DNA of 64,000 nt from Chrysomallon squamiferum (lineage: Eukaryota; Animalia; Mollusca). How positions within the stretch are numbered: position 1 is the first letter of the stretch; every line of letters begins with the position of its first letter. The stretch lies in assembly GCA_012295275.1 (NCBI GenBank), contig CM022677.1:1488001-1552000 (forward strand), in the 5' to 3' direction. Under the pieces are notes generated by a model. That model was given only the letters and a program-made list of their open reading frames with translations. It did no database searches and was not told the DNA's origin. Below are positions 1-60,355 of the stretch, piece after piece. The position numbers and the translations under genes are program-made.

Positions 1-1203
1 TGTCCGTCTGTCACACGTGTACGAAGTTGTCTGTCACTGTGTTTAGATTTGTGTGACTCAGAAAATCTACAAACAAAAGAGTCTACAAAAATTTCTGATT
101 TACCTTCACCTCCACACCATGATCCTTCTCCCTTAACAGTAACAAACAAGCTGCACTCAGTGTCTTTAGTAATCTTCACTGGACGTCTGAACACGACGTC
201 ATACACGTCAGACATAACGTTTTCATATCTCTGTGTCAGTGTAGACCCGTCCAGTATTTCGTCTGTTCTTGTGTCAGTGACGAAGGCGCTGACGTCGTAG
301 TTTCGTGGTTTACGGTGACCGTACAACTGAAATCCAAGAAGTAAAGCGTTTTTGTTGACAGAGAAAGTAATGGCGTCATCTTCTTCACCAGAACATGGCA
401 AATCCACTGAATATTCAATGTTCTACAAAAACCTGTCTTTATAATCCGTAATTTTTCATCTTGCAGTTCTCTTGTTTTGAGTTGAAAGGTGAAACATCTC
501 ATCTGGACAAAGGAAATGTTTTGTAATTTTGAGTTCTTCTGTCTCAGTGAGTATGTGAGTGTGTGTCACGTGTTTTACAAAATACCTCCAATTCAGTAAT
601 GGGTAACGCACGTGCTTCACGACCTCTCCCAGTGCTTCGCGCATGTTTTTTTCACTCGTCGTCTCTTCCCTTGCTTCCTGCACGCGCTGTCAGCCCACTT
701 CACAGCGGCTTCAAAAACATTTTTCTCGTCTGCTGTCAGTTCGTCTGATCGTACGATCTCAACCAGACATTCGTGACAAAGATCGGTGACTTCATCTGAC
801 TTCAGAACTTCGTCGCCATTTTCCAAAATGTAGTCCAGAGTTTTTTCCTTAGATCATGTTCATCAAACATGACCAGCACGACGCACGCATTCTGTGACGA
901 CAACGACGACTCAAATAGTTGACACACTGTTCTTCCAGTGTTGTGATGATGTACTTCCTCGATAGATACAGCAGACCGGTGACGTTGTCGCCTGTTAGGA
1001 CGACGTCATCCGTGTAAAGATATCTGTGTAAAAGAAGTAGAGTAAGACTTTAAAACGTGAGATAACTATGTGAGATAATTAATAAAATAATTAGATTACT
1101 AACAAAAAATGTATTATATCAACGTTTCTGTTTGTATGTATGTCTCTCTTCCTCACTGTGTTCGTACATGTGTTTCCATGTCTCTGTGTATATGTGTAAT
1201 GGG

Positions 1204-1241
<38 letters not shown>

Positions 1242-1498
1242 AACATACTTTAAAAACTCTGAAAAAAGATGTCTGCCTTCACATCAGGTATCACAATATC
1301 TGATTTTTCGCGAAGTTCTCCAGTCAACATCTGACTGAAAAAATTTGATCAGAATTAAACATCGACAGCAGTTTATGTTCCCCAAAAAAATTAAATTAAA
1401 TCTGTGTGAGTTTTTTCAAGAAACAGAAAAAAAATTCAAATGCATTGCATCAGATTCTTCCCTGTCTGCCAACTTGAGGTTCCAGCTGCAGTGGCCAT
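1..1498 (-). pseudogene. BTB-BACK-PHR gene copy 1 (exon 1249-1498, exon <1-1023); frameshifted/garbled, pseudogene or consensus error; last ~9 codons lie beyond window start
   Basis: Colinear with copy 3 (position 1 aligns to ~58864). ATG at 1498 (MATAAGTSSWQTGKNL); same GTATGT/CAG intron. PHR part is open (NIEYSVDLPCSGEEDDAITFSVNKNALLLGFQLYG...RTRVTDGQ), but there are indels near 500, 660 and 870 and scrambled sequence at 1330-1445. Confidence 0.85.
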
Positions 1499-8209: not shown

Positions 8210-8245
<36 letters not shown>

Positions 8246-8305
8246 TACTACTACTACTACTACTACTAATACTACTACTATTGCTATTATTAATGTATAT
8301 TTGTG

Positions 8306-8361
8306 GTGAAAACATGGCCACCATCTGAAGTTGGCAGAGAGTGAAGAAATTATTTGAATGT
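8306..8361 (+). pseudogene. Relic of BTB-gene start (first ~15 codons)
   Basis: GTGAAAACATGGCCACC..GTTGGCAGAGAGTGAAGAAATTATTTGAATG resembles 22892-22955 (GTGAAAACATGGCCACC..GTTGGCAGACAGGGAAGAATCTGATAGAATG) and is likewise preceded by a (TTA)n tract. Confidence 0.65.
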
Positions 8362-9445: not shown

Positions 9446-9645
9446 NNNNNNNNNNNNNNNNNNNNNNNNNNNNNNNNNNNNNNNNNNNNNNNNNNNNNNN
9501 NNNNNNNNNNNNNNNNNNNNNNNNNNNNNNNNNNNNNNNNNNNNNNNNNNNNNNNNNNNNNNNNNNNNNNNNNNNNNNNNNNNNNNNNNNNNNNNNNNNN
9601 NNNNNNNNNNNNNNNNNNNNNNNNNNNNNNNNNNNNNNNNNNNNN
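9446..9645. other. Assembly gap (200 N)
   Basis: Run of exactly 200 N. Confidence 1.
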
Positions 9646-11199: not shown

Positions 11200-17420
<6,221 letters not shown>

Positions 17421-17923: not shown

Positions 17924-19439
17924 GATTATTGATAGTGTAGAAACTTATCTATTTAGCACATTAATTTACTTTACTTGTTTTTTATATTAAAATGGATTAG
18001 CATACAGAAACAGGGTAACCATTTGTCCCTGCTTCAGACTTAAACACGGATAAGCAAAATATATTTACCAACATAGTTGTCTAATAATGGCCGCGAACTC
18101 GACCGTCCCACGCGTTCTGTGTGTCTTTGTCTTTTCTTTGATCCCCCCCGGGCTCTTTTGTGTCTTACTTAAATAAACTTAATGCGTATCAATGGCGGAG
18201 CCGAGAAAAATTCCTTTTGTCTCTCGCTAATGATAGTTAATTTTTAAAAGATTTCATTAATTGGATTACTGTTAACTAACAATATACTGTTGATTAATAT
18301 ATACTGTTAGGAATTTTTGTAGAAATGAATGGGCAACATATTCACTTACTTTAACGATGGATACAATTCAGTTATGATATCTTAGACTGTATTAAAGTAA
18401 GCTGTTTAAGTAAATAATCATTATGTTATCGATATTATCAAAAACTGTATCTTATTGGTACAACAATATAAAATATTATAATAAGTAAAAATAGAAATGG
18501 CTACCAGCGGATTCTTCAAGTAGGTATAAAGTAAATTGCAGTCCGTGGTTTAATAAATAAGTTAGGACCAATTTTCTAAATTAAACACCACAGAAGACAG
18601 TAAATCCAGATATGGCTGAGAAATCTTTCCATAGCTTGATCGAGGCCCTATTAGCGTACAGTTAAAAACTCTACTGCGTAAGATAAAAACCAGTTTACTG
18701 CCATAGTTGTATTATTTTATATTGTATTTTATGTGATGAATAAAAATAAAATTAAAATAAAGAAATAAAGAAAGAAAACAAATACAAATAAATAAATAAC
18801 AAAAAGGAATGAGTGACAAAAATAAATAATTGAAATAAAAAATAAATAAAAATAAACGCAAATTAAAAATAAGAATTACTACCACAAGTGATGAGTATCA
18901 GTCTTAATATTTGAACAATCATTTTTATTTTTGTTTTTTGTTGTTGTTTTTTTCATGTTGTACGTTATATTTATATCCTATATATATATGTATAATCATA
19001 CGTAGTGTTTGTCATATCTGCGTTTAGGTCGCTTTGACTCATAACATGTACAAATAAAAGAGGGTCCCATATTTTCTGATTCACCATTACATTGCATTTT
19101 TCACGATCCTAGGTATAACGTTTCTTCTCTCCAGTACTATTAACACACTATTTTTATCTGACCTAAAAAACAGACAATTGTTAGCAATCAGTTTTTCATG
19201 AATATAACATGGAAAATAAAGCTAGATAATTTACATGCAAAATAAATAATATATACAGTTAACAGGTTTCAAAGGCAAGTTAAATTATATGAGACACATT
19301 GTATGTAATAAAATATGTGCATTTATTTACCGCTAAATGTGGCGTGACATCTGATTTCAGTCGCGTGTTTATGAGCAGATGACATTGTAAACAGCGATAC
19401 ACAGAAGATATTTCAGTGACCTGTCAAACAGGACGTTGT

Positions 19440-22788: not shown

Positions 22789-22879
<91 letters not shown>

Positions 22880-22899
22880 CCTCTGTTTCTAGTGAAAAC

Positions 22900-24439
22900 A
22901 TGGCCACCTCATGTACAATCTCAGGTTGGCAGACAGGGAAGAATCTGATAGAATGCCTTGAGCACGTTTTTCTTACAAAAACTCTCACGGACGTCAGATT
23001 TTTAGTTGGGGAACATAGAACTGCTGTCGATGCTCACCGATTAATTCTGATCATTCGAAGCGAAGTTTTCAGTCAGATGTTGATTGGAGAACTTCGCGAA
23101 AAATCAGATATTGTGATACCTGATGTGAAGGCAGACATCTTTTCAGAGTTTTTAAAGTATGTTAAAAAACACACACACGAACACAGATACACACACACAC
23201 ACACACAGATACACACACAGACATGGAAACACACGTACGAACACAGTGAGGAAGAGAGACATACATACAGACACGAACGTTGATAACAAGTAATCTAATT
23301 ATTTTCTTAGTAATCTAATTATTTTCTAATTAATTATCTCTCGTTTTGAAGTCTTACTCTACTTCTTTTACACAGATATCTTTACACGGATGACGTCGTC
23401 ATAACAGGCGACAACGTCACCGGTCTGCTGTATCTATCGAAGAAGTACATAGTCACGACACTGGAAGATCAGTGCGTCAACTATTTGGAGTCGTCGTTGT
23501 CGTCATGGAATGCGTGCGTCGTGCTGGAACAAGCTCACCTGTTTGATGAACATCATCTAAGGGGAAAAAGTCTGGACTATATTTTGGAAAATGGCGACGA
23601 AGTTCTGAAGTCAGATGAAGTCACCGATCTTTGTCACGAATGTCTGCTTGAGATCGTACGATCAGACGAACTGGCAGCACACGAGAAAAATGTTTTTCGA
23701 AGCCGCTGTGAAGTGGGCTGACAGCGCGTGCAGGAAGCAAGGGAAGAATACGAGTGAAAAAAACATGCGCGAAGCACTGGGAGAGGTCGTGAAGCACGTG
23801 CGTTACCCATTACTGAATTGGAGGTATTTTGTAAAACACGTGACACACACTCACATACTCACTGAGACAGAAGAACTCAAAATTACAAAACATTTCCTTT
23901 GTCCAGATGAAGATGTTTCACCTTTCAACTCAAAGAAGAGAGCTGAAGTGAAAACACAGATTAAAATAGACAGGCTTCATAGACCTGATCGTGCTATTGA
24001 CTATTATATGGATTTGCCATGCACTGGTAAAGAAGATGACGCCATTACTTTCTCTGTCAACAAAAACGCTTTACTTCGCGGATTTCAGTTGTACGGTGAA
24101 AGTGTACCACGAAACTACGACGTCAGCGCCTTCGTCACTGCTACAAGAACAGACGAAATACTGGACGGGTCTACACTGACACAGAGATATGAAAACGTGT
24201 ATGACGTGTATGACGTCGTGTTCAGACGTCCAGTGAAGATTACTAAAGACACTGAGTACAGCTTGTTTGTTAATGTTAAGGGAGTCTACTCAATGTGTGG
24301 ATTTGTAGGTAAATCAAAAATTGTTGTAGACGCTTTTGTTTGTAGATTTTCTAAATCACACAAATCTAAACACAGTGACAGACGACTTCGTACAGATGTG
24401 ACACACGGACAAATACCTGCTTTGTTATTTTTAGTGTAA
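22900..24439 (+). CDS. BTB-BACK-PHR protein copy 2 (exons 22900-23156, 23376-24439); +1 frameshift at 23693-23698; ~439 aa if corrected
   Basis: BTB motif (TDVRFLVG..AHRLIL..RSEVF..ML.GEL....IVIPDV...F..FLKYLYTD), BACK motif (VFEAAVKWA..VRYPLL) and PHR motif (DAITFSVNK..LRGFQLYG..GQIPALLF). Phase-2 intron AA|GTATGT..CACAG|A restores KYLYTD. Confidence 0.9.
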
Positions 24440-25094
24440 AAAACAACATCGTTCAAACACTGTCACTTTCAGCCATCACTGGGATCATATTTTCATTTAT
24501 TTATTTATTTATGTTTGTTTGTTTACATTTTGTGTTTCTGATGACGTCAGACAGCAGTGATGACGTCATACTCACTTGATTTGAATTTTTTGTTTTCTAA
24601 TGGACTGATTTCTGTCAAACACGTGCATCGTGTATATTATACACATCTCATTTCTTCATTATTGTTATTACTGTTATTGTTTATTTATTTATTTATTATT
24701 ATTATTTTTTAAATTTCTTTTGTATATGAGTAATAATATGTTTGTATATTTTGTATGTATTTCCTTGTTAGACCTGAAAATAAGGACTGTTATTTTCTTT
24801 TACTAAGACTAGCAACTCTTTGTTTATTTACTTATTTATGAGATATAAATAAATGAAAAACAGATAAATAAATTTTTATTTTTATTTTGAATTTTCAACT
24901 TCGTTTATTTTTGTATTTAATTGGTGTTTAAAATGTAAACAGGTGAATTACAACGATATACAAATAAATGTGTCAGGTATTATTATTTACTTTTGTTATT
25001 TATTTATTTATTTATTTGTTTCTTTTCTGCAAACATTCACTAATAGTATATGTATGTGTGAATACACACACAGATAATACATACATACATACGT

Positions 25095-25459: not shown

Positions 25460-27019
25460 TGGACTCGGCGAAAAAGAACCTTGGACTAACCAGGATTTGT
25501 GTATAAACTAGTGTAGCAGGAAATCACAAACCCTGTCAATCACAAACCCCTCCTAATATACCACACATATAGCAGTAGTAACTGTGTCTGTAACTGCATC
25601 TCACTACAAACATTCCTTCCATATGTGGTTTTGATATGAACAACAAATATTTGCACGTTAGAAATGGGTCACAATGATGTTGTTTTTTTGCCAAAAATTA
25701 TTTATGTTTCTGTTTAACAAAAGTTTCAAGTATAGTATGTCTGTTAAATTGCAACAAAACATATTTTATCCCGCCGCAATCTTAAAATTTCAGGTTTTTC
25801 TTACTTTCTTTTTTCCTGCAGCTACAAAAACCTCTACTCCCATACTTGTGATACACAACTGAAAAATATAAAAAAAGCGACAGTCTGATTTGAAATTATT
25901 TACTGACCAACTTCCTTCATAAACAATGGTTAATTAAAGTACTGATAACACCTGTTACAGTAGTCAGAAACTGTTTGTGTATAAACATTTCCCTTCTGAC
26001 TGAGATTCAAAGTCTATACCAGTGGTGTGCCAGAAGATACGATTAACAGGGATGCTATGCAGTGTGCTATTCCACGGGGTGGGGGGCATTTCTAGCAAAT
26101 TACAAACCCTGGGGTGTGCGATTTCCAGGTGTTTGTAATTAACTGTTACACCGGCACATTTCAGTTTCCCTTCCACCTACTGTTAATCTGTTGTGAACAA
26201 AACAGTGACTAATCCGGATGCTGTCTACTTCGGATACTGAATGTAAATTCCAGAACAAAAGATAAATAATTGATATAGTAATTAGCATTGTCAATAACTA
26301 CACATAATTTTTCACTGCAATTTAAACGAAACCGTTTTGTCTCTGTTTACATATATATACATATATACCTGTTTGTGTATGTTTATATATATATATAAAA
26401 ACATACACAAACAGGTATCTACCCGTCACGTCTGTTTTGGTTTGTCAGAGCATTATTCGCTCTTTCTTAAACATATCTACATACACACACACACATACAC
26501 ATACACACATACATAAAATTAGACTTACAGATACACACATTCACACACATACATACATACACACATAAACTTACACAGAGAGAGATAAAAAGTTGAAGAG
26601 AAGAACAAACCTATTTCTTGTAACAACAAATAAACCTATTCAAGAAACATAACACTTATATATAGAAACAAGGAACTTGTATAATTCTATGTATGTGTGT
26701 GTATATATTAAACCTTATACCGTTAAAAAAAGAAAAAAAAAGTTACACAAGTTTCTTACCAGATGCCGAAACTCTAGGCCAAAGTTTCTCAGTACCGGCC
26801 CTATGCCCCTCCTCTGTGGTTAGAGTGAATCAAACCCTTGCTCCAACTAACACCAGCGTGCATAGACAAGAAAAGACGAAATATGATTAGTAACATCGGG
26901 ATTTAAAACACTTGTGTACAGATATCCACTGATGTATCATATTTAATATGAACATCCTTAATATCTCTGAACAGAGAATATTATACAAAGCATGATTCGG
27001 TAATAACAACAACAACAAC

Positions 27020-27058
<39 letters not shown>

Positions 27059-27499
27059 AATAATGATTATTATAATAATAACAGTAAACAGTAATAACAA
27101 AAACATTATAGAAATAATAAGAAAAACACTACGATCATTAATAGCAACGACAAAAAAAAAAACATCTGTGATAATAACGGCTTCAGACACCATAGAGAAA
27201 TAATCTGTAAGATCACAAAAAAAGAGAGAAAAATTACACAAAAAAAAAACAACAAAAAAAACAACAACACTGGTTCTTATTAACCAAGCATGATACGCAC
27301 TGCGCATTCTGCCACTACATGAAAATCATATGTTGATATCAATAACATCATGCGCTAATGTTTATAGTTCCTCTCTATGAAATTCTGGTGGCTGTTTGGG
27401 ATTCTCTTCTCTGATTTGTTAGCCATGTTTAATTGGTAAATGACCGTTAGACCACCAGACAATGATCAAACTGATTCAATGAGGATATAGGTAAAGTAG

Positions 27500-30380
<2,881 letters not shown>

Positions 30381-30755
30381 GTTTTTAGTTCTTAATTATT
30401 TTTTTTTTTTTTTTTTTTTTATTTTTTTTTTTTTTTAAGAACGTGGAACGGTCGCAGTCCACTGAACGCACTGGGTAACTAGTTCTACACTCACACACAC
30501 ACAAACACACACATGCACCCACCCAGACACACACACACATACACATACACACACATAGTGGACTCACTTGGGATCAGCGAGATATGCCGTTTTAGACAGA
30601 GCGGCGGTTTACAAATATTAAACATGAAAGTGGAGTGTTTTATTAGAAATGTCACAGTTAAACGGCTATCGAGATTCAGCGTAGAAATAGATGTCACTTA
30701 AGACTGGTTTATTTTTTGTGTTTTTATTTATGTTTTTTATTTTAATTTTATTTAT

Positions 30756-30801
<46 letters not shown>

Positions 30802-31182
30802 TCTCTCCAAAGCAATCTCCTCTATTATTATTAACATCGGTTGCAAGAGTCTGCTTTCGGTAGCAGCACCAAAAGATTCAATTTGTGTTATCATTTCACG
30901 AACATCTGTAGAAGAAAATTCGGTAACTGATTGTTTGTGTGTGTGCTAATCCTTTCAGACTTTTCAATTTGTCGGTCGTTGTTCTCTGCTGAAATACTGG
31001 TTTCGTACAACTGCCGGTAATGGTCGCTATGTTTTAAGATGTCAAATATTGTTTGTCTTCACATTTGAAATTGCACAGTCAGCGTTCACGCGAGACTGCG
31101 ACCTGGACGAAATACTCGTCCTTTTATACTGAACTTCGCTTTACTTTTAACTCACGACAAAGCCTATGTCACCGAGAAAACA

Positions 31183-31474
31183 GGACAAATACCTGCTGTG
31201 TTATTTTTAGTGTGAAAATCAGCATCGTTCAAATATTGTCAGTTTTAGTGATATCTGTGTCATATTTTTTTTTATTTTCTTTATTTTTTTTTTTTTTCAG
31301 TTTTGTGTTTATTTATTTATTTATATATTTTTCTATTGGTATTTCTGATGACGTTAGACAGCAGTGATGACGGCATACCGTCTTTCATTTGATTTGAAAC
31401 TTACCTATCTAATGGACACTTTTCTGTCAAACAGATACATGTAAAATTTATATAAATATCTCATTTCTTGAATA

Positions 31475-32720: not shown

Positions 32721-33077
32721 CACAAACACACACATTGTTTCATAAATATAACATAACGTGAAGCTATGTACGAATGCGGGACAGAAAATAAAGGTCAAAA
32801 TGACATAATGAAATCTTAGACTTTCTTTAACGGTTCAGTTATAAATGAGAATAGCCTCTCTCAATAAACCCGTCACAATTTTTTCATCGTCATAATGTGA
32901 AGCCCGCTTTACAGGTTTGTCGAACAAAAGAGAAATATAAAATATTTCTACACCAAAAATATAACTTTTTTAACGTGTATGGTTACATATAGACGCTTAT
33001 CTATCCTCTTCATAACATATCTAATTAATTAATAGCAATGAAAAACAGGATGCAGAGATAACATAATAATCGTACTC

Positions 33078-33109
<32 letters not shown>

Positions 33110-33431
33110 TTTTTTTTTTTTCTCTCTATTTTAGACACCTTTGTTTCGTAATGTTAAAACACACACACACACAGAGAGACACATTCACACATATATATTT
33201 TTTTCAAACGAATTAATTCAGTATGCTATAGCATATATTTCATTAGTTGAATAATCTAAATGCATACAATTTGTTTCTATGCGTGAATGTGAGACTGCAC
33301 ACAAGACAGGTATGATGCAAACGTTTTAAGTGTCACGTTTATTAAAACTAATACAATATCTCAAATACACGCAAACTAGAAGTATAATTGTAAATTTAAT
33401 ACATTTGCTTATTTTAATAACTGTAATTAAT

Positions 33432-33546
<115 letters not shown>

Positions 33547-33812
33547 GAGATACACCTGCATATACATGCGCACACGTCTGTCTGTGTCAAATAAGACTGT
33601 TTGAGTAAAATTATCTTCTCTCAATATAACTAAATTGATTTTCCGATATTAATTATTATATGAAATGTGTTGATAATGTGCAGCTGATTCGCCCTCTGTT
33701 TATCTACAACTTTGTCAGCAAATTTACAGAGAAGTGGAATGAATTTTATGTTAGCTTATTTAATAGCTTACAAAAATACATTTAACTTATTTTAACATGT
33801 TGCCGCTACTTT

Positions 33813-33848
<36 letters not shown>

Positions 33849-35599
33849 TATTATGCTTTCTTTTCTAGATAGATATATATATATATATATATTTGTCATT
33901 TCGAACTTTAGTTTCCTGGGGAAGATACATACGCACACATTTTTTCCCCACGAAGGAAAAGGTTGAAGAGGCAAACTGAAATCTCCCACGTTTCTTCGGT
34001 TATCCTCTAAAAAAATGAAAGACAGAAATGTTGAATTTGGCGACTGTAAGGAAACAAAGATAAGATTTTATTTTAACTGACGAACAAAGGAATGCTTTCT
34101 TTCTTTTTCTTTCTTCTTCTTTTTTTTTTTTCATTTATACAGCTTTTTTTTTCTCCATTTATCCCGTCTCCTTTCACCGCATCAACTAATTTGAATTTTT
34201 TTTTTCAAATAACATTTTATTTGTTTACTGAAGCGAAACTTACTATGCGGTTTGTCACGTACAAGGGTGATGAAGAGATGATCGTTTTTAAGATAAAGAA
34301 ATAAAGTGCATTACAATTAAACAAATACAGCACAAAAGCTACACCTACACTGTCACGTTTCTTCATATTGTATGGAAGTGTTAAACTAATTTCCCCATCT
34401 AACATATTATGATATGAATTTAATCTTTTTTTTTAAATCTAACAGTCGACAGTAAGTAGAAATATTAACATTTGTGAATGTAATTTATGAAATGATAATA
34501 TAAAAAATAAAATATTTACAGATCGCTCAGTCCATGTAAAGACTAAGAGAGAAATAATAAGAAATACAAAGACCCTTTTCATCAAAGAAAAGAAACAAAG
34601 GAACAAAACAAAAAACAGTTTTTGTTTACATGTGTGTGTGACAAATCTCAATGAATAAAAACTATTATTTTCTGTGAGGTATACTCTTAATATTATTTAT
34701 TAATTAATAAATGTATTATTATTTTTATTATTACACACACACAGAGACACACCCAACTCACACACACTCACACACACACACACTGGAAACAATAAACGCT
34801 GTCTGAAATTGAATGACTAACTCGATGATATTGGACTTTGTTAAGGTAATAGAAAGGAAAAGAAGAAAAAGAAAAGAACAACACTATTACACATAAAAAG
34901 AGGTTGGAATCTGGTCACGTTTACACACTGATACGCAAATGTTCATACCCTGTATTTAGTTTAACAGTTTACATCATATTTGTTTGCCGAGGCGGAACGC
35001 TTCATCTTGTTTAATCAAGTTTTCAATATGCGCAGTCATGAGTTTCACAAAGTTAATTTAACTCAGGTCCGCACTTGATACTGAAAAGAAACATTTTCCT
35101 CTCCTGGCAGAACGACAACAGTCAGCTGATCGCGTGATTCAGAAAGACCACGCGATTGACACAGATAAAATACTTCGTCTTCAGAAATATATCTTGTTTA
35201 AGTTAATACAGAAATGCTGGGTATCGAAATTTATAGTGGGTATAGGGGAAGGACTTGGTTTAATCGCCTCATTTAGTATAACTTAAAAATCAAGTTTAAA
35301 AAATGATAATAAAAGAAAAAAAATGTATACCTTACAGTTTAGTCGTCCTGTGAAAATCACGTGTTTTGTTTTATATTAATTTTATGATTAAAACAGTATC
35401 AGAGGGACCAGTAAATTCAACTAATTATCGTGTTGGTATAACACTAAACTTATCCTCTAGATAAATAATCAATTAACAACTTAACTTTATTAATTTTGAA
35501 ACCTATTTTGTAAATATACACAAAAACATTTAAAAGTGTTCTTATATATATAATAAATACGCTGTTAGTGACACAGATTACACTGCAAAAGTGAGAACA

Positions 35600-35935
35600 G
35601 TATTTTACCACAACCCGCTGTCAAACGCATATCGCATTTTTCAAAGCAAGGTCAAAGTTTAAAGGTCCTCTTCAGTTACCTCCCTGTTTATCAAAAGGAA
35701 TCACTGGGCCGTGCAAAAACCCGTTTATCGCTTGTTCTTCCTCACACCCGAGTTTTCCTTGCTGACGTCATACATTAGATTCCCGCAGACGTCAGTGAAA
35801 AGAGCGAGAGAAGCCAGCCCAGGCTGACACATTTTAAAACTTTGTTTACACACAAACTCGCCGCAGCTAAATATCTTAACTCTCAAATTTACAAACTACC
35901 TTTAAGAATTCGTAATCGCGTATTTTCCGGTAAAA
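35600..35935 (+). promoter_or_regulatory. CpG-rich promoter-like module (DR1-like element, CRE, possible first exon and donor); copies at ~46575-46920 and ~52370-52700 (minus)
   Basis: CAAGGTCAAAGTTTA 35647-35661; TGACGTCA 35763-35770; AGACGTCA ~35787; CCG|GTAAAA at ~35930; CpG-dense in an AT-rich background. Confidence 0.4.
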
Positions 35936-42859: not shown

Positions 42860-43059
42860 NNNNNNNNNNNNNNNNNNNNNNNNNNNNNNNNNNNNNNNNN
42901 NNNNNNNNNNNNNNNNNNNNNNNNNNNNNNNNNNNNNNNNNNNNNNNNNNNNNNNNNNNNNNNNNNNNNNNNNNNNNNNNNNNNNNNNNNNNNNNNNNNN
43001 NNNNNNNNNNNNNNNNNNNNNNNNNNNNNNNNNNNNNNNNNNNNNNNNNNNNNNNNNNN
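42860..43059. other. Assembly gap (200 N)
   Basis: Run of exactly 200 N. Confidence 1.
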
Positions 43060-50889: not shown

Positions 50890-51182
50890 CAATATTCAAG
50901 AAATGAGATATTTATATAAATTTTACACGTATCTGTTTGACAGAAAACAGTCCATTAGAAAAGTAAGTTTCAAATCAAATGAAAGACGGTATGCCGTCAT
51001 GACTGCTGTCTAAGGTCATCAGAAATACCAATAGAAAAATATGCAAATAAATAAATAAACACAAAACTGAAAAATAAATAAATAAGAAAATAAAAAAAAA
51101 TATGACACAGATATCACTAAAACTGACAATAATTGAACGATGCTGATTTTCACACTAAAAATAACAAAGCAGGTATTTGTCC
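50500..51182 (-). pseudogene. Mirror relic of BTB-PHR gene 3' end (GQIPALLFLV* at 51150-51182 plus 3' UTR)
   Basis: Reverse complement of 31183-31880; the last ten codons give the same peptide as the intact gene. Confidence 0.85.
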
Positions 51183-51801
51183 TGTTTTCTGGGTGACATA
51201 GGCTTTGTCGTGAGTTAAAAGTAAAGCGAAGTTCAGTATAAAAGGACGAGTATTTCGTCCAGGTCGCAATCTCGCGTGAACGCTGACTGTGGAATTTCAA
51301 ATGTGAAGACAAACAATATTTGACATCTTAAAACATAGCGACCATTACCGGCAGTTGTACGAAACCAGTATTTCAGCAGAGAACAACGACCGACAAATTG
51401 AAAAGTCTGAAAGGATTAGCACACACACAAACAATCAGATACCGAATTTTCTTCTACAGATGTTCGTGAAATGGTAACACAAATTGAATCTTTTGGTGCT
51501 GCTACCGAAAGCAGACTCTTGCAACCGATGTTAATAATAATAGAGGAGATTGCTTTGGAGAAAAATATATATATAAAAAATAATAATAAATAAAATTAAA
51601 ATAAAAAACATAAATAAAAACACAACAAAATAAACCAGTCTTAAGTGATATCTATTTCTACGCTGAAACTCGATAGCCGTTTAACTGTAACATTTGTAAT
51701 AAACATTCCACTTTCATGTTTAATATTTGTAAACAGCCGATCTCTCTAAAACAGCATATCTCGCTGATCCCAAGTGAGTCCACTATGTCTATGTGTGTGG
51801 A

Positions 51802-58835: not shown

Positions 58836-60355
58836 TTACACTAAAAATAACAAAGCAGGTATTTGTCCGTGTGTCACATCTGTACGAAGTTCTCTGTGAC
58901 TGTGTTTAGATTTGTGTGACTCAGAAAATCTACAAACAAAAGAGTCTACAACAATTTCTGATTTACCTTCATCTCCACACCATGAGTTGTCTCCCTTAAC
59001 ATTAACAAACAAGCTGTACTCAGTGTCTTTAGTAATCTTCACTGGACGACTGAACACGACGTCATACACGTCAGACGCGACGTATTCATATCTCTGTGTC
59101 AGTGTAGACCCGTCCAGTATTTCGTCTGTTCTTGTGTCAGTGACGAAGGCGCTGACGTCGTAGTTGTGTGGTTCAAACTGACCGTACAACTGAAATCCGC
59201 GAAGTAAAGCGTTTTTGTTGACAGAAAAAGTAATGGCTTCATCTTCTTTACCAGAACATGACAACCAGTAACAATACCAACGAAACCTGTTTATTGTAAT
59301 CTGTGTTTTACGAATCATTGCAGTTCTCATGTTTGAGTTGAAAGGTGAAACATCTTCATCACTGCTCACCAAGTGTCTCCAAATCTTGTTTTCTTCTGTG
59401 TCAGTGAGTATGTGAGTGGGTGTCACGTGTTCTACAAAATACGTCTGATCGAGTAATGGATAACGCACGTGCTTCACGACCTCTCCCAGTGCATCGCGCA
59501 TGTTTTCTTCACTCGTCTTCTTCCCTTGCTTCCTGCACGCGCTGTCAGCCCACTTCACAGCGGCTTCAAAAACATTTTTCTCTTCTGCTGCCAGTTCGTC
59601 TGATCGTACGATCTCAACCAGATATTCGTGACAAAGATCGGTGACTTCATCCGACTTCAAAACTTCGTCGCCATTTTCCAAAATGAAGTCCAGAGTTTTT
59701 TTCCTTAGATCATGTTTATCAAACAGGTGAGCTTGTTCCAGCACGACGCACGCATTCTGTGACGACAACGACGACTCCAAATAATGTGTGCATTCATCTT
59801 CCAGTGTCGTGACTATGTACTTCTTCGATAGATACAGCAGACCGGTGACGTTGTCGCCTGTTAGGACGACGTCATCCGTATAAAGATATCTGTATAAAAG
59901 AAGTAGAGTAAGACTTTAAAACGTGAGATAATTATGTGAGATTAATTAATTAGAAAATAATTAGATTACTAACAAAAACTGTATTGTTATCAACGTTTCT
60001 GTCTGTCTGTATGTCTCACTTCCTCACTGTGTTCGTAGGTGTGTTTCCATGTTTGTTTGTGTGTGTGTGTGTGTGTGTGTCTGTGTGTTTTAACATACTT
60101 TAAAAACTCTGAAAAGATGTCTGCCTTCACTTCCGGTATCACAATATCTGATTTTTCGCGAAGTTCTCCAGTCAACATCTGACAGAAAACTTCGCTTCGA
60201 ATGATCAGAATTAAACGATGCGCATCGACAGTAGTTTTATGTTCCCCAACTAAAAATCTGACGTCCGTGTGAGTTTTTGTAAGAAAAACGTGTTCAAGGC
60301 ATTCTTTCAGATTCTTCCCTGTCTGCCAACCTGAGACTGAAGTTGAGATGGCCAT
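58836..60355 (-). CDS. BTB-BACK-PHR protein copy 3 (BTBD1/2/3/6-like CUL3 adaptor), intact; exons 60099-60355 and 58836-59889, 436 aa
   Basis: 257+1054 nt = 1311 nt open frame; 209-nt GTATGT..ATACAG intron; BTB, BACK and PHR motifs ending TDVTHGQIPALLFLV*. Confidence 0.95.

What the first reader, a model, noticed from the sequence alone, without database searches (positions are those of the whole stretch)
23810..24439. Hypervariable BTB-BACK-PHR family: clustered replacement changes in the substrate-binding domain
Seen: from EDD/EDE to the stop (~135 codons), copies 2 and 3 differ by my count at 19 amino acids plus one codon indel but only 2 purely synonymous codons (TTC/TTT, GTG/GTC); BTB exon 1 has ~11 replacements and ~5 synonymous changes. 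Variation recurs at the same spots in all three copies (copy1/2/3): NIEYSVDLPCS/AIDYYMDLPCT/RWYCYWLSCS; YG-HRKPR/ESVPR/QFEPH; ENVMS/ENVY/EYVAS; KG-EGSWCGGE/VYSMCGFV/DNSWCGDE; DRQLRTRVTD/DRRLRTDVTH/HRELRTDVTH. These are separated by nucleotide-identical framework, like CDRs in a scaffold, and the distal BACK and linker are also variable. Known: BTB-BACK proteins are CUL3 adaptors, PHR is a beta-sandwich C-terminal interaction domain, and F-box and MATH-BTB adaptors of nematodes and plants show expansion with positive selection on substrate-binding domains. Inference: an arms-race intracellular recognition system (anti-pathogen, anti-transposon or self/non-self) that ubiquitinates variable targets, diversified by duplication and conversion. 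I cannot verify novelty from here.
Basis: partly seen in the sequence, partly recalled or inferred. Interest (0 to 1): 0.85.

Follow-up and report, generated by a model that had tools for sequence, protein, structure and literature searches.

The report
Snail ubiquitin adaptors with hypervariable face
This snail DNA holds one intact and two broken copies of a much-duplicated protein-destruction adaptor gene whose differences concentrate in loops predicted to form its target-binding face, and the same loops vary in related vent-snail and abalone gene clusters, so the family likely works as a changing set of target detectors, possibly in defence, rather than as the nervous-system gene it was published as.

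Summary
Observation confirmed. The window holds three BTB-BACK-PHR copies. Copies 2 and 3 differ by 19 residues, one codon indel and 1-2 silent codons from EDD/EDE to the stop. The finding does not mention that copy 2 (its coordinates) has a +1 frameshift before the PHR domain or that copy 1 is a pseudogene; only copy 3 is intact. The 19:2 count alone is not significant (dN/dS 1.6-2.0, P 0.09-0.18). Stronger support came from outside the window. The same loops vary in Gigantopelta and abalone paralog clusters and in reads from other animals. Four of the five loops are conserved in canonical PHR domains, so the usual pattern is inverted. dN/dS above 1 at these loops is only marginal once a free mutation rate is allowed (P about 0.03). 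The expansion itself is published ('BTBD6', 56 and 35 copies in two vent snails, read as neural or immune). The tree rejects orthology to BTBD3/6. [quoted passage not shown] Targets and an immune role are untested.

The parts
22900..24439 (+). Copy 2: BTB-BACK-PHR gene, exon 1 22900-23156, intron 23157-23375, exon 2 23376-24439; broken by a +1 frameshift
23693..23721 (+). Extra base (about 23698) in copy 2 and the resulting premature stop at 23719-23721, upstream of the PHR domain
   Evidence: listed RNA depth at 23698 lacks the base in both RNA runs (844.4 of 844.4, 595.5 of 595.5)
23960..24436 (+). PHR domain of copy 2
   Evidence: Pfam PF08005 E 6e-20
23975..24037 (+). Variable loop 1 (codons 288-302), the most variable, with length differences
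24095..24112 (+). Variable loop 2 (codons 322-327)
24191..24208 (+). Variable loop 3 (codons 354-360); the weakest: not conserved in canonical PHR and little variable in G. aegis
24278..24313 (+). Variable loop 4 (codons 384-395)
24353..24412 (+). Variable loop 5 (codons 409-428)
23810..23959 (+). Distal BACK and linker (codons about 232-282): divergent between copies 2 and 3 with dN 0.22 and dS 0.26, largely identical between copies 1 and 2; likely a conversion or recombination tract
58836..60355 (-). Copy 3: the only intact copy, 436 aa, exon 1 60355-60099, exon 2 59889-58836
1..1498 (-). Copy 1: pseudogene with many indels and stops; its last codons run off the window
31175..31213 (+). Remnant of a further copy: last PHR codons, followed by a 3' flank about 72% like that of copy 2
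51151..51189 (-). Mirror remnant of the PHR C-terminus
8315..8360 (+). Remnant of the first codons of exon 1 (weak: nhmmer E 0.05; blastn 76% over 8210-8348, partly repeat)
18604..18702 (-). Possible older BTB exon-1 remnant (tblastn E 0.001 to a G. aegis paralog)

Best explanation
These are one intact and two broken members of a rapidly duplicating gastropod BTB-BACK-PHR family whose products are predicted to be CUL3 ubiquitin-ligase substrate receptors, and whose predicted target-binding PHR face is likely diversified by positive selection, most likely against foreign intracellular proteins. Steps: (1) shown: BTB-BACK-PHR architecture, duplication, pseudogenes, remnants and mosaic tracts; (2) shown: amino-acid variation concentrates in the same PHR segments in the window, in G. 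aegis and in three abalone sets, and four of the five segments are conserved in canonical PHR domains; (3) inferred from strand order: the segments form one face, opposite the BACK attachment; (4) inferred from family knowledge: BTB-BACK docks on CUL3 and the PHR face binds the target, which is ubiquitinated and degraded; (5) likely but only marginally shown: dN/dS above 1 on that face; (6) inferred by analogy: the targets are pathogen, symbiont or transposon proteins that change faster than host proteins.
For: Loop codons: pN 0.17-0.20 in all three pairs, against 0.025-0.038 elsewhere in PHR and 0.040-0.051 in upstream flanks. Changes at codon positions 1/2/3 are 14/12/6 in loops and 14/9/14 in BTB-BACK. 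0 of 28 loop codons with an unchanged residue carry a silent change. With a free local rate, dN/dS is 4.0 (P 0.027) for the loop set and 13 (P 0.032) for 16 codons picked from G. aegis alone; 8 of those 16 vary in the window against 19 of the other 120 (P 0.004). Diversity at the variable vs the opposite end: G. aegis 0.42 vs 0.12, canonical BTBD1/2-type 0.29 vs 0.48, MYCBP2 PHR1 0.19 vs 0.47; block-wise rho -0.79 between G. aegis and MYCBP2 (22 blocks). Abalone sets tested with the segments already fixed: 0.44 vs 0.28, 0.57 vs 0.47, 0.53 vs 0.31 (P 0.007, 0.024, 7e-5). Four other runs: 32 of the 36 displayed PHR variant rows fall in the loops (60 of 154 codons), and depth falls at the loops (rho -0.88, -0.87, -0.63, -0.50 over 20 bins). 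Confident model matching BTBD2 and MYCBP2 PHR and KLHL11-CUL3 structures. PHR1 has a flat conserved surface thought to bind proteins (PMC4806438, passage); Btbd6 binds CUL3 through BTB-BACK (10.1101/575910, passages).
Against: Only three nucleotide sequences, two of them broken. Pairwise tests are not significant at kappa 1 and reach P 0.04 in one of three pairs at kappa 2.5. A neutral fast-site mixture fits as well as positive selection. Background dN/dS is about 1, so purifying selection on the framework is not shown here. Multi-base codon changes and conversion can inflate site tests (own knowledge). The distal BACK/linker also gives a positive M1a/M2a test (P 0.0015) yet has dS as high as dN. 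The loop set was drawn after seeing the window and G. aegis data. The anticorrelation with canonical BTBD1/2 alone is not significant (rho -0.32, P 0.14). Btbd6 recruits Plzf through BTB, not PHR. Several private letters of copies 2 and 3 are absent from the listed RNA depth, so expression of these particular copies is not shown. No tissue, infection or substrate data.
Confidence: 0.62

Rival explanations
1. Neutral birth-and-death. After duplication the ancestral binding function was lost or relaxed, the loops simply tolerate change, and conversion tracts or local mutation hotspots make the differences look concentrated.
For: 2 of 3 copies are broken and up to four remnants lie in the window. 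Whole-gene dN/dS for copies 2 and 3 is 1.03. The hotspot mixture ties with the selection mixture. Mosaic tracts are significant.
Against: Loop pN is about four times upstream flank divergence, more than relaxation alone gives. Loops at the opposite end, which are the tolerant ones in canonical PHR, are nearly invariant in G. aegis. The same codons vary in lineages at 30-54% identity, where a DNA hotspot is unlikely to persist. No silent change in 28 unchanged loop codons.
Confidence: 0.2
2. Diversifying selection is real, but the targets are the animal's own fast-evolving proteins (gamete, shell, other expanded families) or its chemosynthetic symbiont, not pathogens.
For: All sequence evidence above is blind to the target. 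Known partners of vertebrate BTB-BACK-PHR proteins are host proteins: topoisomerase 1 (PMC1257465, passage) and Plzf. Peltospirid snails carry intracellular symbionts (PMC7895826, section 8).
Against: Shallow-water abalones, which are not chemosymbiotic (own knowledge), have the same kind of cluster with the same variable loops, against a vent- or symbiosis-specific cause. Fast gene death fits moving external targets better (inference).
Confidence: 0.12
3. Published reading: an expansion of BTBD6 that serves neural differentiation in deep-sea snails.
For: PMC7736800 (passages) speculates this from the BTBD6 label; database names are 'BTBD2/3/6-like'.
Against: The snail clade is far from the canonical BTBD1/2 and BTBD3/6-type clade; forcing it together with the BTBD3/6-type row is rejected (p-AU 8e-5, 19 rows). 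The canonical conserved PHR loops are the ones that are scrambled. Abalones share the expansion.
Confidence: 0.04
4. Assembly or sequencing artefact: the differences are errors.
For: Copy 2's extra base sits beside a T run and may be an error; each copy lies on a different gap-bounded contig, so copies 2 and 3 could be two haplotypes of one locus.
Against: Variants recur at the same loops in four other runs and in RefSeq proteins of other species; loop differences are multi-base and in frame between copies 2 and 3. If the copies are alleles the differences are still real.
Confidence: 0.02

Closest known systems
Peltospirid 'BTBD6' expansion (56 copies in Chrysomallon squamiferum, 35 in Gigantopelta aegis; PMC7736800; listed among immune families in PMC7895826)
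   Same: Same architecture; 18 of 27 hits are G. aegis proteins, the best at 51-54% identity; window copies and G. aegis paralogs form one well-supported clade; duplicated clusters.
   Different: The passages read report copy number and speculate on neural or immune roles; they mention no hypervariable loops, site selection, pseudogenes or non-orthology to BTBD6. Their supplements were not read.
Vertebrate BTBD1/2/3/6 (BTB-BACK-PHR, 'BBP' family; PDB 3NO8)
   Same: Domain order, PHR fold (Foldseek E 9e-14, TM 0.83 on the target), predicted CUL3 docking.
   Different: Four to seven conserved genes per genome (PMC1257465) against dozens of fast-turning copies; the conserved loops (RWGYSG, GPDSHYG, NNGTS..GQIP in 3NO8) are hypervariable here; separate clade.
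Nematode F-box and MATH-BTB adaptor families (Thomas 2006, as summarised in PMC4334554; the original was not read)
   Same: Cullin adaptors with birth-death evolution and rapid change in the substrate-binding domain, proposed to destroy foreign proteins.
   Different: Different recognition fold (PHR) and phylum; here selection is only marginally shown and constraint on the cullin-binding part is shown only at protein level in G. aegis and abalone (diversity 0.13-0.28 vs 0.41-0.57 in loops).
TRIM5alpha / PRYSPRY variable loops (recalled, not tested)
   Same: E3 ligase with a beta-sandwich whose loops on one face evolve fast.
   Different: Unrelated fold family and ligase type; antiviral function is proven there and unknown here.

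Membership tests
BTB-BACK-PHR (BBP) proteins | BTB, BACK and PHR domains in that order in one reading frame | tested here: met
   Copy 3: PF00651, PF07707, PF08005 above cut-off; open 436-aa frame over a GT-AG intron. Copies 1 and 2 are broken.
BTB-BACK-PHR (BBP) proteins | PHR beta-sandwich fold | tested here: met
   Model pLDDT 90.6; best matches 3NO8, 3GBW, 3HWJ.
CUL3 substrate adaptors | BTB-BACK binds CUL3 | not tested
   Only indirect: fold matches to KLHL11-CUL3 and KBTBD2-CUL3; a hydrophobic-x-Glu motif (recalled as the CUL3 contact) is present as L-R-E.
BTBD3/BTBD6 orthologs | Groups with canonical BTBD3/6 in a tree | tested here: not met
   p-AU 7.7e-5 against a clade of six snail rows plus the one BTBD3/6-type row, whose label is recalled from its motif.
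Peltospirid 'BTBD6' expansion | Sister to or within the G. aegis paralogs | tested here: met
   Clade support 100 (SH-aLRT, quick tree, 56 rows) and 97/96. C. squamiferum proteins were not among the hits, so identity with its 56 genes was not tested.
F-box/MATH-BTB-like diversifying adaptor families (works like) | Birth-and-death evolution | tested here: met
   1 intact, 2 broken, up to 4 remnants in 64 kb; window copies group apart from all 15 G. aegis rows.
F-box/MATH-BTB-like diversifying adaptor families (works like) | Positive selection in the substrate-binding domain | tested here: inconclusive
   M1a vs M2a P 2e-7 but P about 0.03 once local rate is free, and a hotspot mixture ties.
F-box/MATH-BTB-like diversifying adaptor families (works like) | Purifying selection on the cullin-binding part | tested here: inconclusive
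   dN/dS 0.5-1.1 among window copies, M0 1.02; low protein diversity in G. aegis and abalone.
F-box/MATH-BTB-like diversifying adaptor families (works like) | Recognises and degrades foreign proteins | not testable with these tools
   Needs pull-downs and infection experiments.

The most novel reading that the evidence does not exclude
Gastropods run an intracellular immune repertoire on CUL3: dozens of PHR receptors per genome whose conserved ancestral binding face has become a set of CDR-like loops, reshuffled by gene conversion between inverted copies, polymorphic between individuals, and in some clusters combined further by splicing one BTB exon onto alternative BACK-PHR exons (as RefSeq annotates in red abalone), each receptor marking a different pathogen or transposon protein for destruction.
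Probability: 0.3. Interest if true: 0.8.

Novelty: new variant of a known kind. Interest (0 to 1): 0.52.

Why it matters
It would recast a published 'deep-sea nervous-system' gene expansion as a gastropod-wide, fast-diversifying family of ubiquitin-ligase receptors, and add PHR to the folds that animals use as variable detectors on cullin ligases. The variable sites also point to the binding surface of the PHR domain, whose ligands are poorly known even in human BTBD1/2/3/6. Abalones are farmed and can be infected in the laboratory, so the immune hypothesis is testable there.

Tried and rejected
No whole genome is held for this window, so paralogs could not be collected. The metagenome scan found no relative (59 pattern matches, none confirmed). 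A PHR-only protein search gave no hit among 16 candidates. Copy 3's exon-2 peptide is not in the protein collection by exact match. M1a vs M2a was rejected as proof by itself because a neutral fast-site model ties. Contig depth was not used as copy number or expression level; exon 2 is several-fold deeper than exon 1 in all four runs, which may reflect graph overlap. The best run holds only 46% of copy 3's sampled words: a hint of polymorphism, not evidence. No contig joint across the intron was listed; intron depth is lower relative to exon 1 in RNA (4.5 and 1.7 vs about 260-290) than in DNA (2469 vs 17083; 101 vs 571), a weak sign of splicing. The PHR crystal-structure paper (PMID 20156452) was not held; only a review's sentence on it was seen. 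No complex prediction was sent. Literature searches for a prior report of variable PHR loops found none: 'PHR domain+BTBD2+degron' 0 papers; 'BTB-BACK-PHR' 4, none on molluscs by title and abstract; 'BTBD6+positive selection+tandem duplication' 1, on chickens; 'Chrysomallon+BTB+expanded' 2; 'BTBD6+expanded+snail' 3; two broader searches listed nothing on this family. The library lacks most subscription journals, and supplements of PMC7736800 and PMC7895826, which may bear on novelty, were not opened. Earlier scan notes held nothing on this family.

Full report
WHAT IS THERE. The window is AT-rich animal DNA (GC about 0.30) with two 200-base gaps at 9446-9645 and 42860-43059. It holds three two-exon BTB-BACK-PHR genes, one on each gap-bounded contig: copy 1 (1498 to 1, minus), copy 2 (22900-24439, plus) and copy 3 (60355-58836, minus). 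Copy 3 is intact (436 aa). Copy 2, where the finding lies, has one extra base near 23698 that ends the frame at 23721, before the PHR domain. Copy 1 has about a dozen indels and stops. Up to four short remnants lie at about 8315, 18650, 31190 and 51170; the first two are weak. Copies 2 and 3 are mirror points of a colinear inverted duplication of at least 21 kb (18.5-39.4 kb against 64-43.1 kb, 82-95% identical) whose right arm starts just after a gap. They may therefore be paralogs in a palindrome or two haplotypes; I could not tell.

CHECK OF THE COUNTS. From codon 301 to the stop, copies 2 and 3 differ at 19 residues in 134 compared codons, with one codon indel and 1-2 purely silent codons; exon 1 has 11 and 5. 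Counted per site, however, dN/dS is 1.6-2.0 with P 0.18-0.09; the other two pairs give 1.9-2.5, with P 0.04 at best. Whole-gene dN/dS for copies 2 and 3 is 1.03. Variable codons are not clustered along the chain beyond chance (P 0.34), but 7 of 25 carry three different residues. The distal BACK/linker is divergent with dS as high as dN (0.26, 0.22) and is largely identical in copies 1 and 2; informative sites fall in runs (54 vs 84 expected, below all 10000 shuffles), which points to conversion or recombination.

RELATIVES. Of 27 hits, 18 are Gigantopelta aegis proteins (best 51-54% identical), 8 abalone, 1 unnamed. The organism is thus likely a neomphaline snail other than G. aegis (inference; C. 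squamiferum is the obvious candidate, not tested). The expansion is in print: PMC7736800 (passages) reports 56 'BTBD6' copies in C. squamiferum and 35 in G. aegis, with tandem clusters, and speculates on the nervous system; PMC7895826 (passage and section 8) lists it among immunity-related families in a figure legend; a preprint cites it as a vent adaptation (10.1101/2025.10.31.685756, passage). A search with an abalone relative returned 68 proteins, 63 named from four Haliotis species, so such clusters are not vent-specific. A search of 50%-identity representatives gave 119 hits; of 42 scanned, all had PHR and 34 also listed BACK. In trees the window copies are sister to all 15 G. aegis rows included (quick tree, 56 rows), and the snail clade is apart from the canonical BTBD1/2 and BTBD3/6-type rows; forcing it with the single BTBD3/6-type row is rejected (p-AU 7.7e-5, 19 rows; that row's label is recalled from its motif). 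'BTBD6' is therefore a best-hit name, not orthology.

WHERE THE VARIATION SITS. The model of copy 3's exon 2 is confident (pLDDT 90.6) and matches the PHR structures of BTBD2 and MYCBP2 and the BTB-BACK of KLHL11-CUL3. I drew the segments after seeing the window and G. aegis data. In 8 closely related G. aegis paralogs (8 of the 15 aligned), diversity is 0.42 at that end and 0.12 at the other; in 5 canonical BTBD1/2-type and 14 MYCBP2-type PHR domains (19 of 26 motif-bearing rows) it is the reverse, 0.29 vs 0.48 and 0.19 vs 0.47. Without my segments, 7-residue blocks give rho -0.79 between G. aegis and MYCBP2 (P 1e-5) but only -0.32 against BTBD1/2 (P 0.14). Loop 3 does not fit: it is not conserved in canonical domains. 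A review states that PHR1 has a flat conserved surface likely to bind proteins (PMC4806438, passage); that this surface is these loops is my inference and recollection of the structure paper, which I could not read.

INDEPENDENT READS. Ten runs hold part of copy 3, at most 46% of its sampled words. Four were laid as contigs (two DNA, two RNA; two studies). Depth falls at the loops in all four (rho -0.88 to -0.50, 20 bins), and 32 of the 36 PHR rows among the 40 displayed (of 136) lie in the loops, 31 of them non-silent when read as single changes (the rows are the best-supported ones relative to copy 3, so not a random sample). The family is present in both RNA runs, with the intron depleted; this is weak, contig-level evidence. 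Several private letters of copies 2 and 3 are absent from the RNA rows, so these particular copies are not shown to be expressed. RNA depth at 23698 lacks copy 2's extra base.

SELECTION. Loop codons have pN 0.17-0.20, against 0.025-0.038 in the rest of PHR and 0.040-0.051 in upstream flanks (0.16 in the repeat-rich downstream flank of copies 2 and 3). My codon models on three sequences give M1a vs M2a 2dL 30.5 in PHR, 4.4 in BTB-BACK (P 0.11) and 13.0 in the distal tract. A neutral mixture with a 35-fold fast class fits PHR equally well; freeing both rate and dN/dS improves it only at P 0.04; with fixed site sets dN/dS is 4.0 (P 0.027) or 13 (P 0.032). Background dN/dS is about 1, as expected when two of three sequences are dead. 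So positive selection is likely, not proven. What tips the balance is that the same codons vary in distant lineages and that the normally tolerant loops do not.

MECHANISM. By family knowledge BTB-BACK binds CUL3 (shown for Btbd6, 10.1101/575910, passages) and PHR is the expected substrate module, shown to bind topoisomerase 1 (PMC1257465, passages); against this, Btbd6 takes Plzf through BTB. A virus protein can hijack CUL3-BTBD1 (PMC13769053, passages and part of the reference list), which shows contact with pathogens but not defence. The pattern matches nematode F-box and MATH-BTB adaptors as summarised in PMC4334554 (passage). I commit to a repertoire of CUL3 receptors with a diversifying PHR face, most likely aimed at foreign proteins (0.62); neutral birth-death 0.20; host or symbiont targets 0.12; neural BTBD6 role 0.04; artefact 0.02.

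NOVELTY. The family expansion is known and so is the kind of system. My searches found no report of hypervariable PHR loops, of the inversion against canonical PHR, or of the abalone parallel; the library is incomplete and supplements were not read. Verdict: new variant of a known kind, interest 0.52.

Noticed in passing
Proteins P0164/P0168 (XP_048245028.1, XP_048245031.1) and P0186/P0190, Haliotis rufescens: RefSeq isoforms that are identical over the last 75 residues of the BTB exon, up to the conserved intron, but only 67% and 50% identical in the BACK-PHR exon: one BTB exon annotated as spliced to alternative BACK-PHR exons. May be real exon swapping between tandem copies or an annotation merge.
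   Followed up: partly
window 18478-39421 vs 64000-43096: Colinear inverted duplication of at least 21 kb, 82-95% identical, with the right arm starting beside the gap at 42860-43059; a true palindrome or two haplotypes joined by scaffolding.
   Followed up: partly
window 22850-24500: Summed contig depth over exon 2 is several-fold to 20-fold above exon 1 in all four runs; could mean more exon-2 than exon-1 copies in the genome, or graph overlap.
   Followed up: no
window 27546-30383 vs 32911-35849 and their mirrors at 46.7-49.5 kb and 52.4-55.6 kb: Older tandem units, 72-81% identical, next to the PHR C-terminal remnants; likely decayed earlier rounds of the same array.
   Followed up: no
window 11729-17417: A dense nest of short mutual repeats (70-91% identical), also matching 26787-27209; no long reading frame.
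   Followed up: no
window 59402 (loose ends in runs X1, X3): Contig ends reading TAACCC repeats join a family copy here, like a telomere repeat; single contigs.
   Followed up: no
Protein P0029 (610 aa, unnamed): BTB-BACK protein with two PHR domains in tandem.
   Followed up: no
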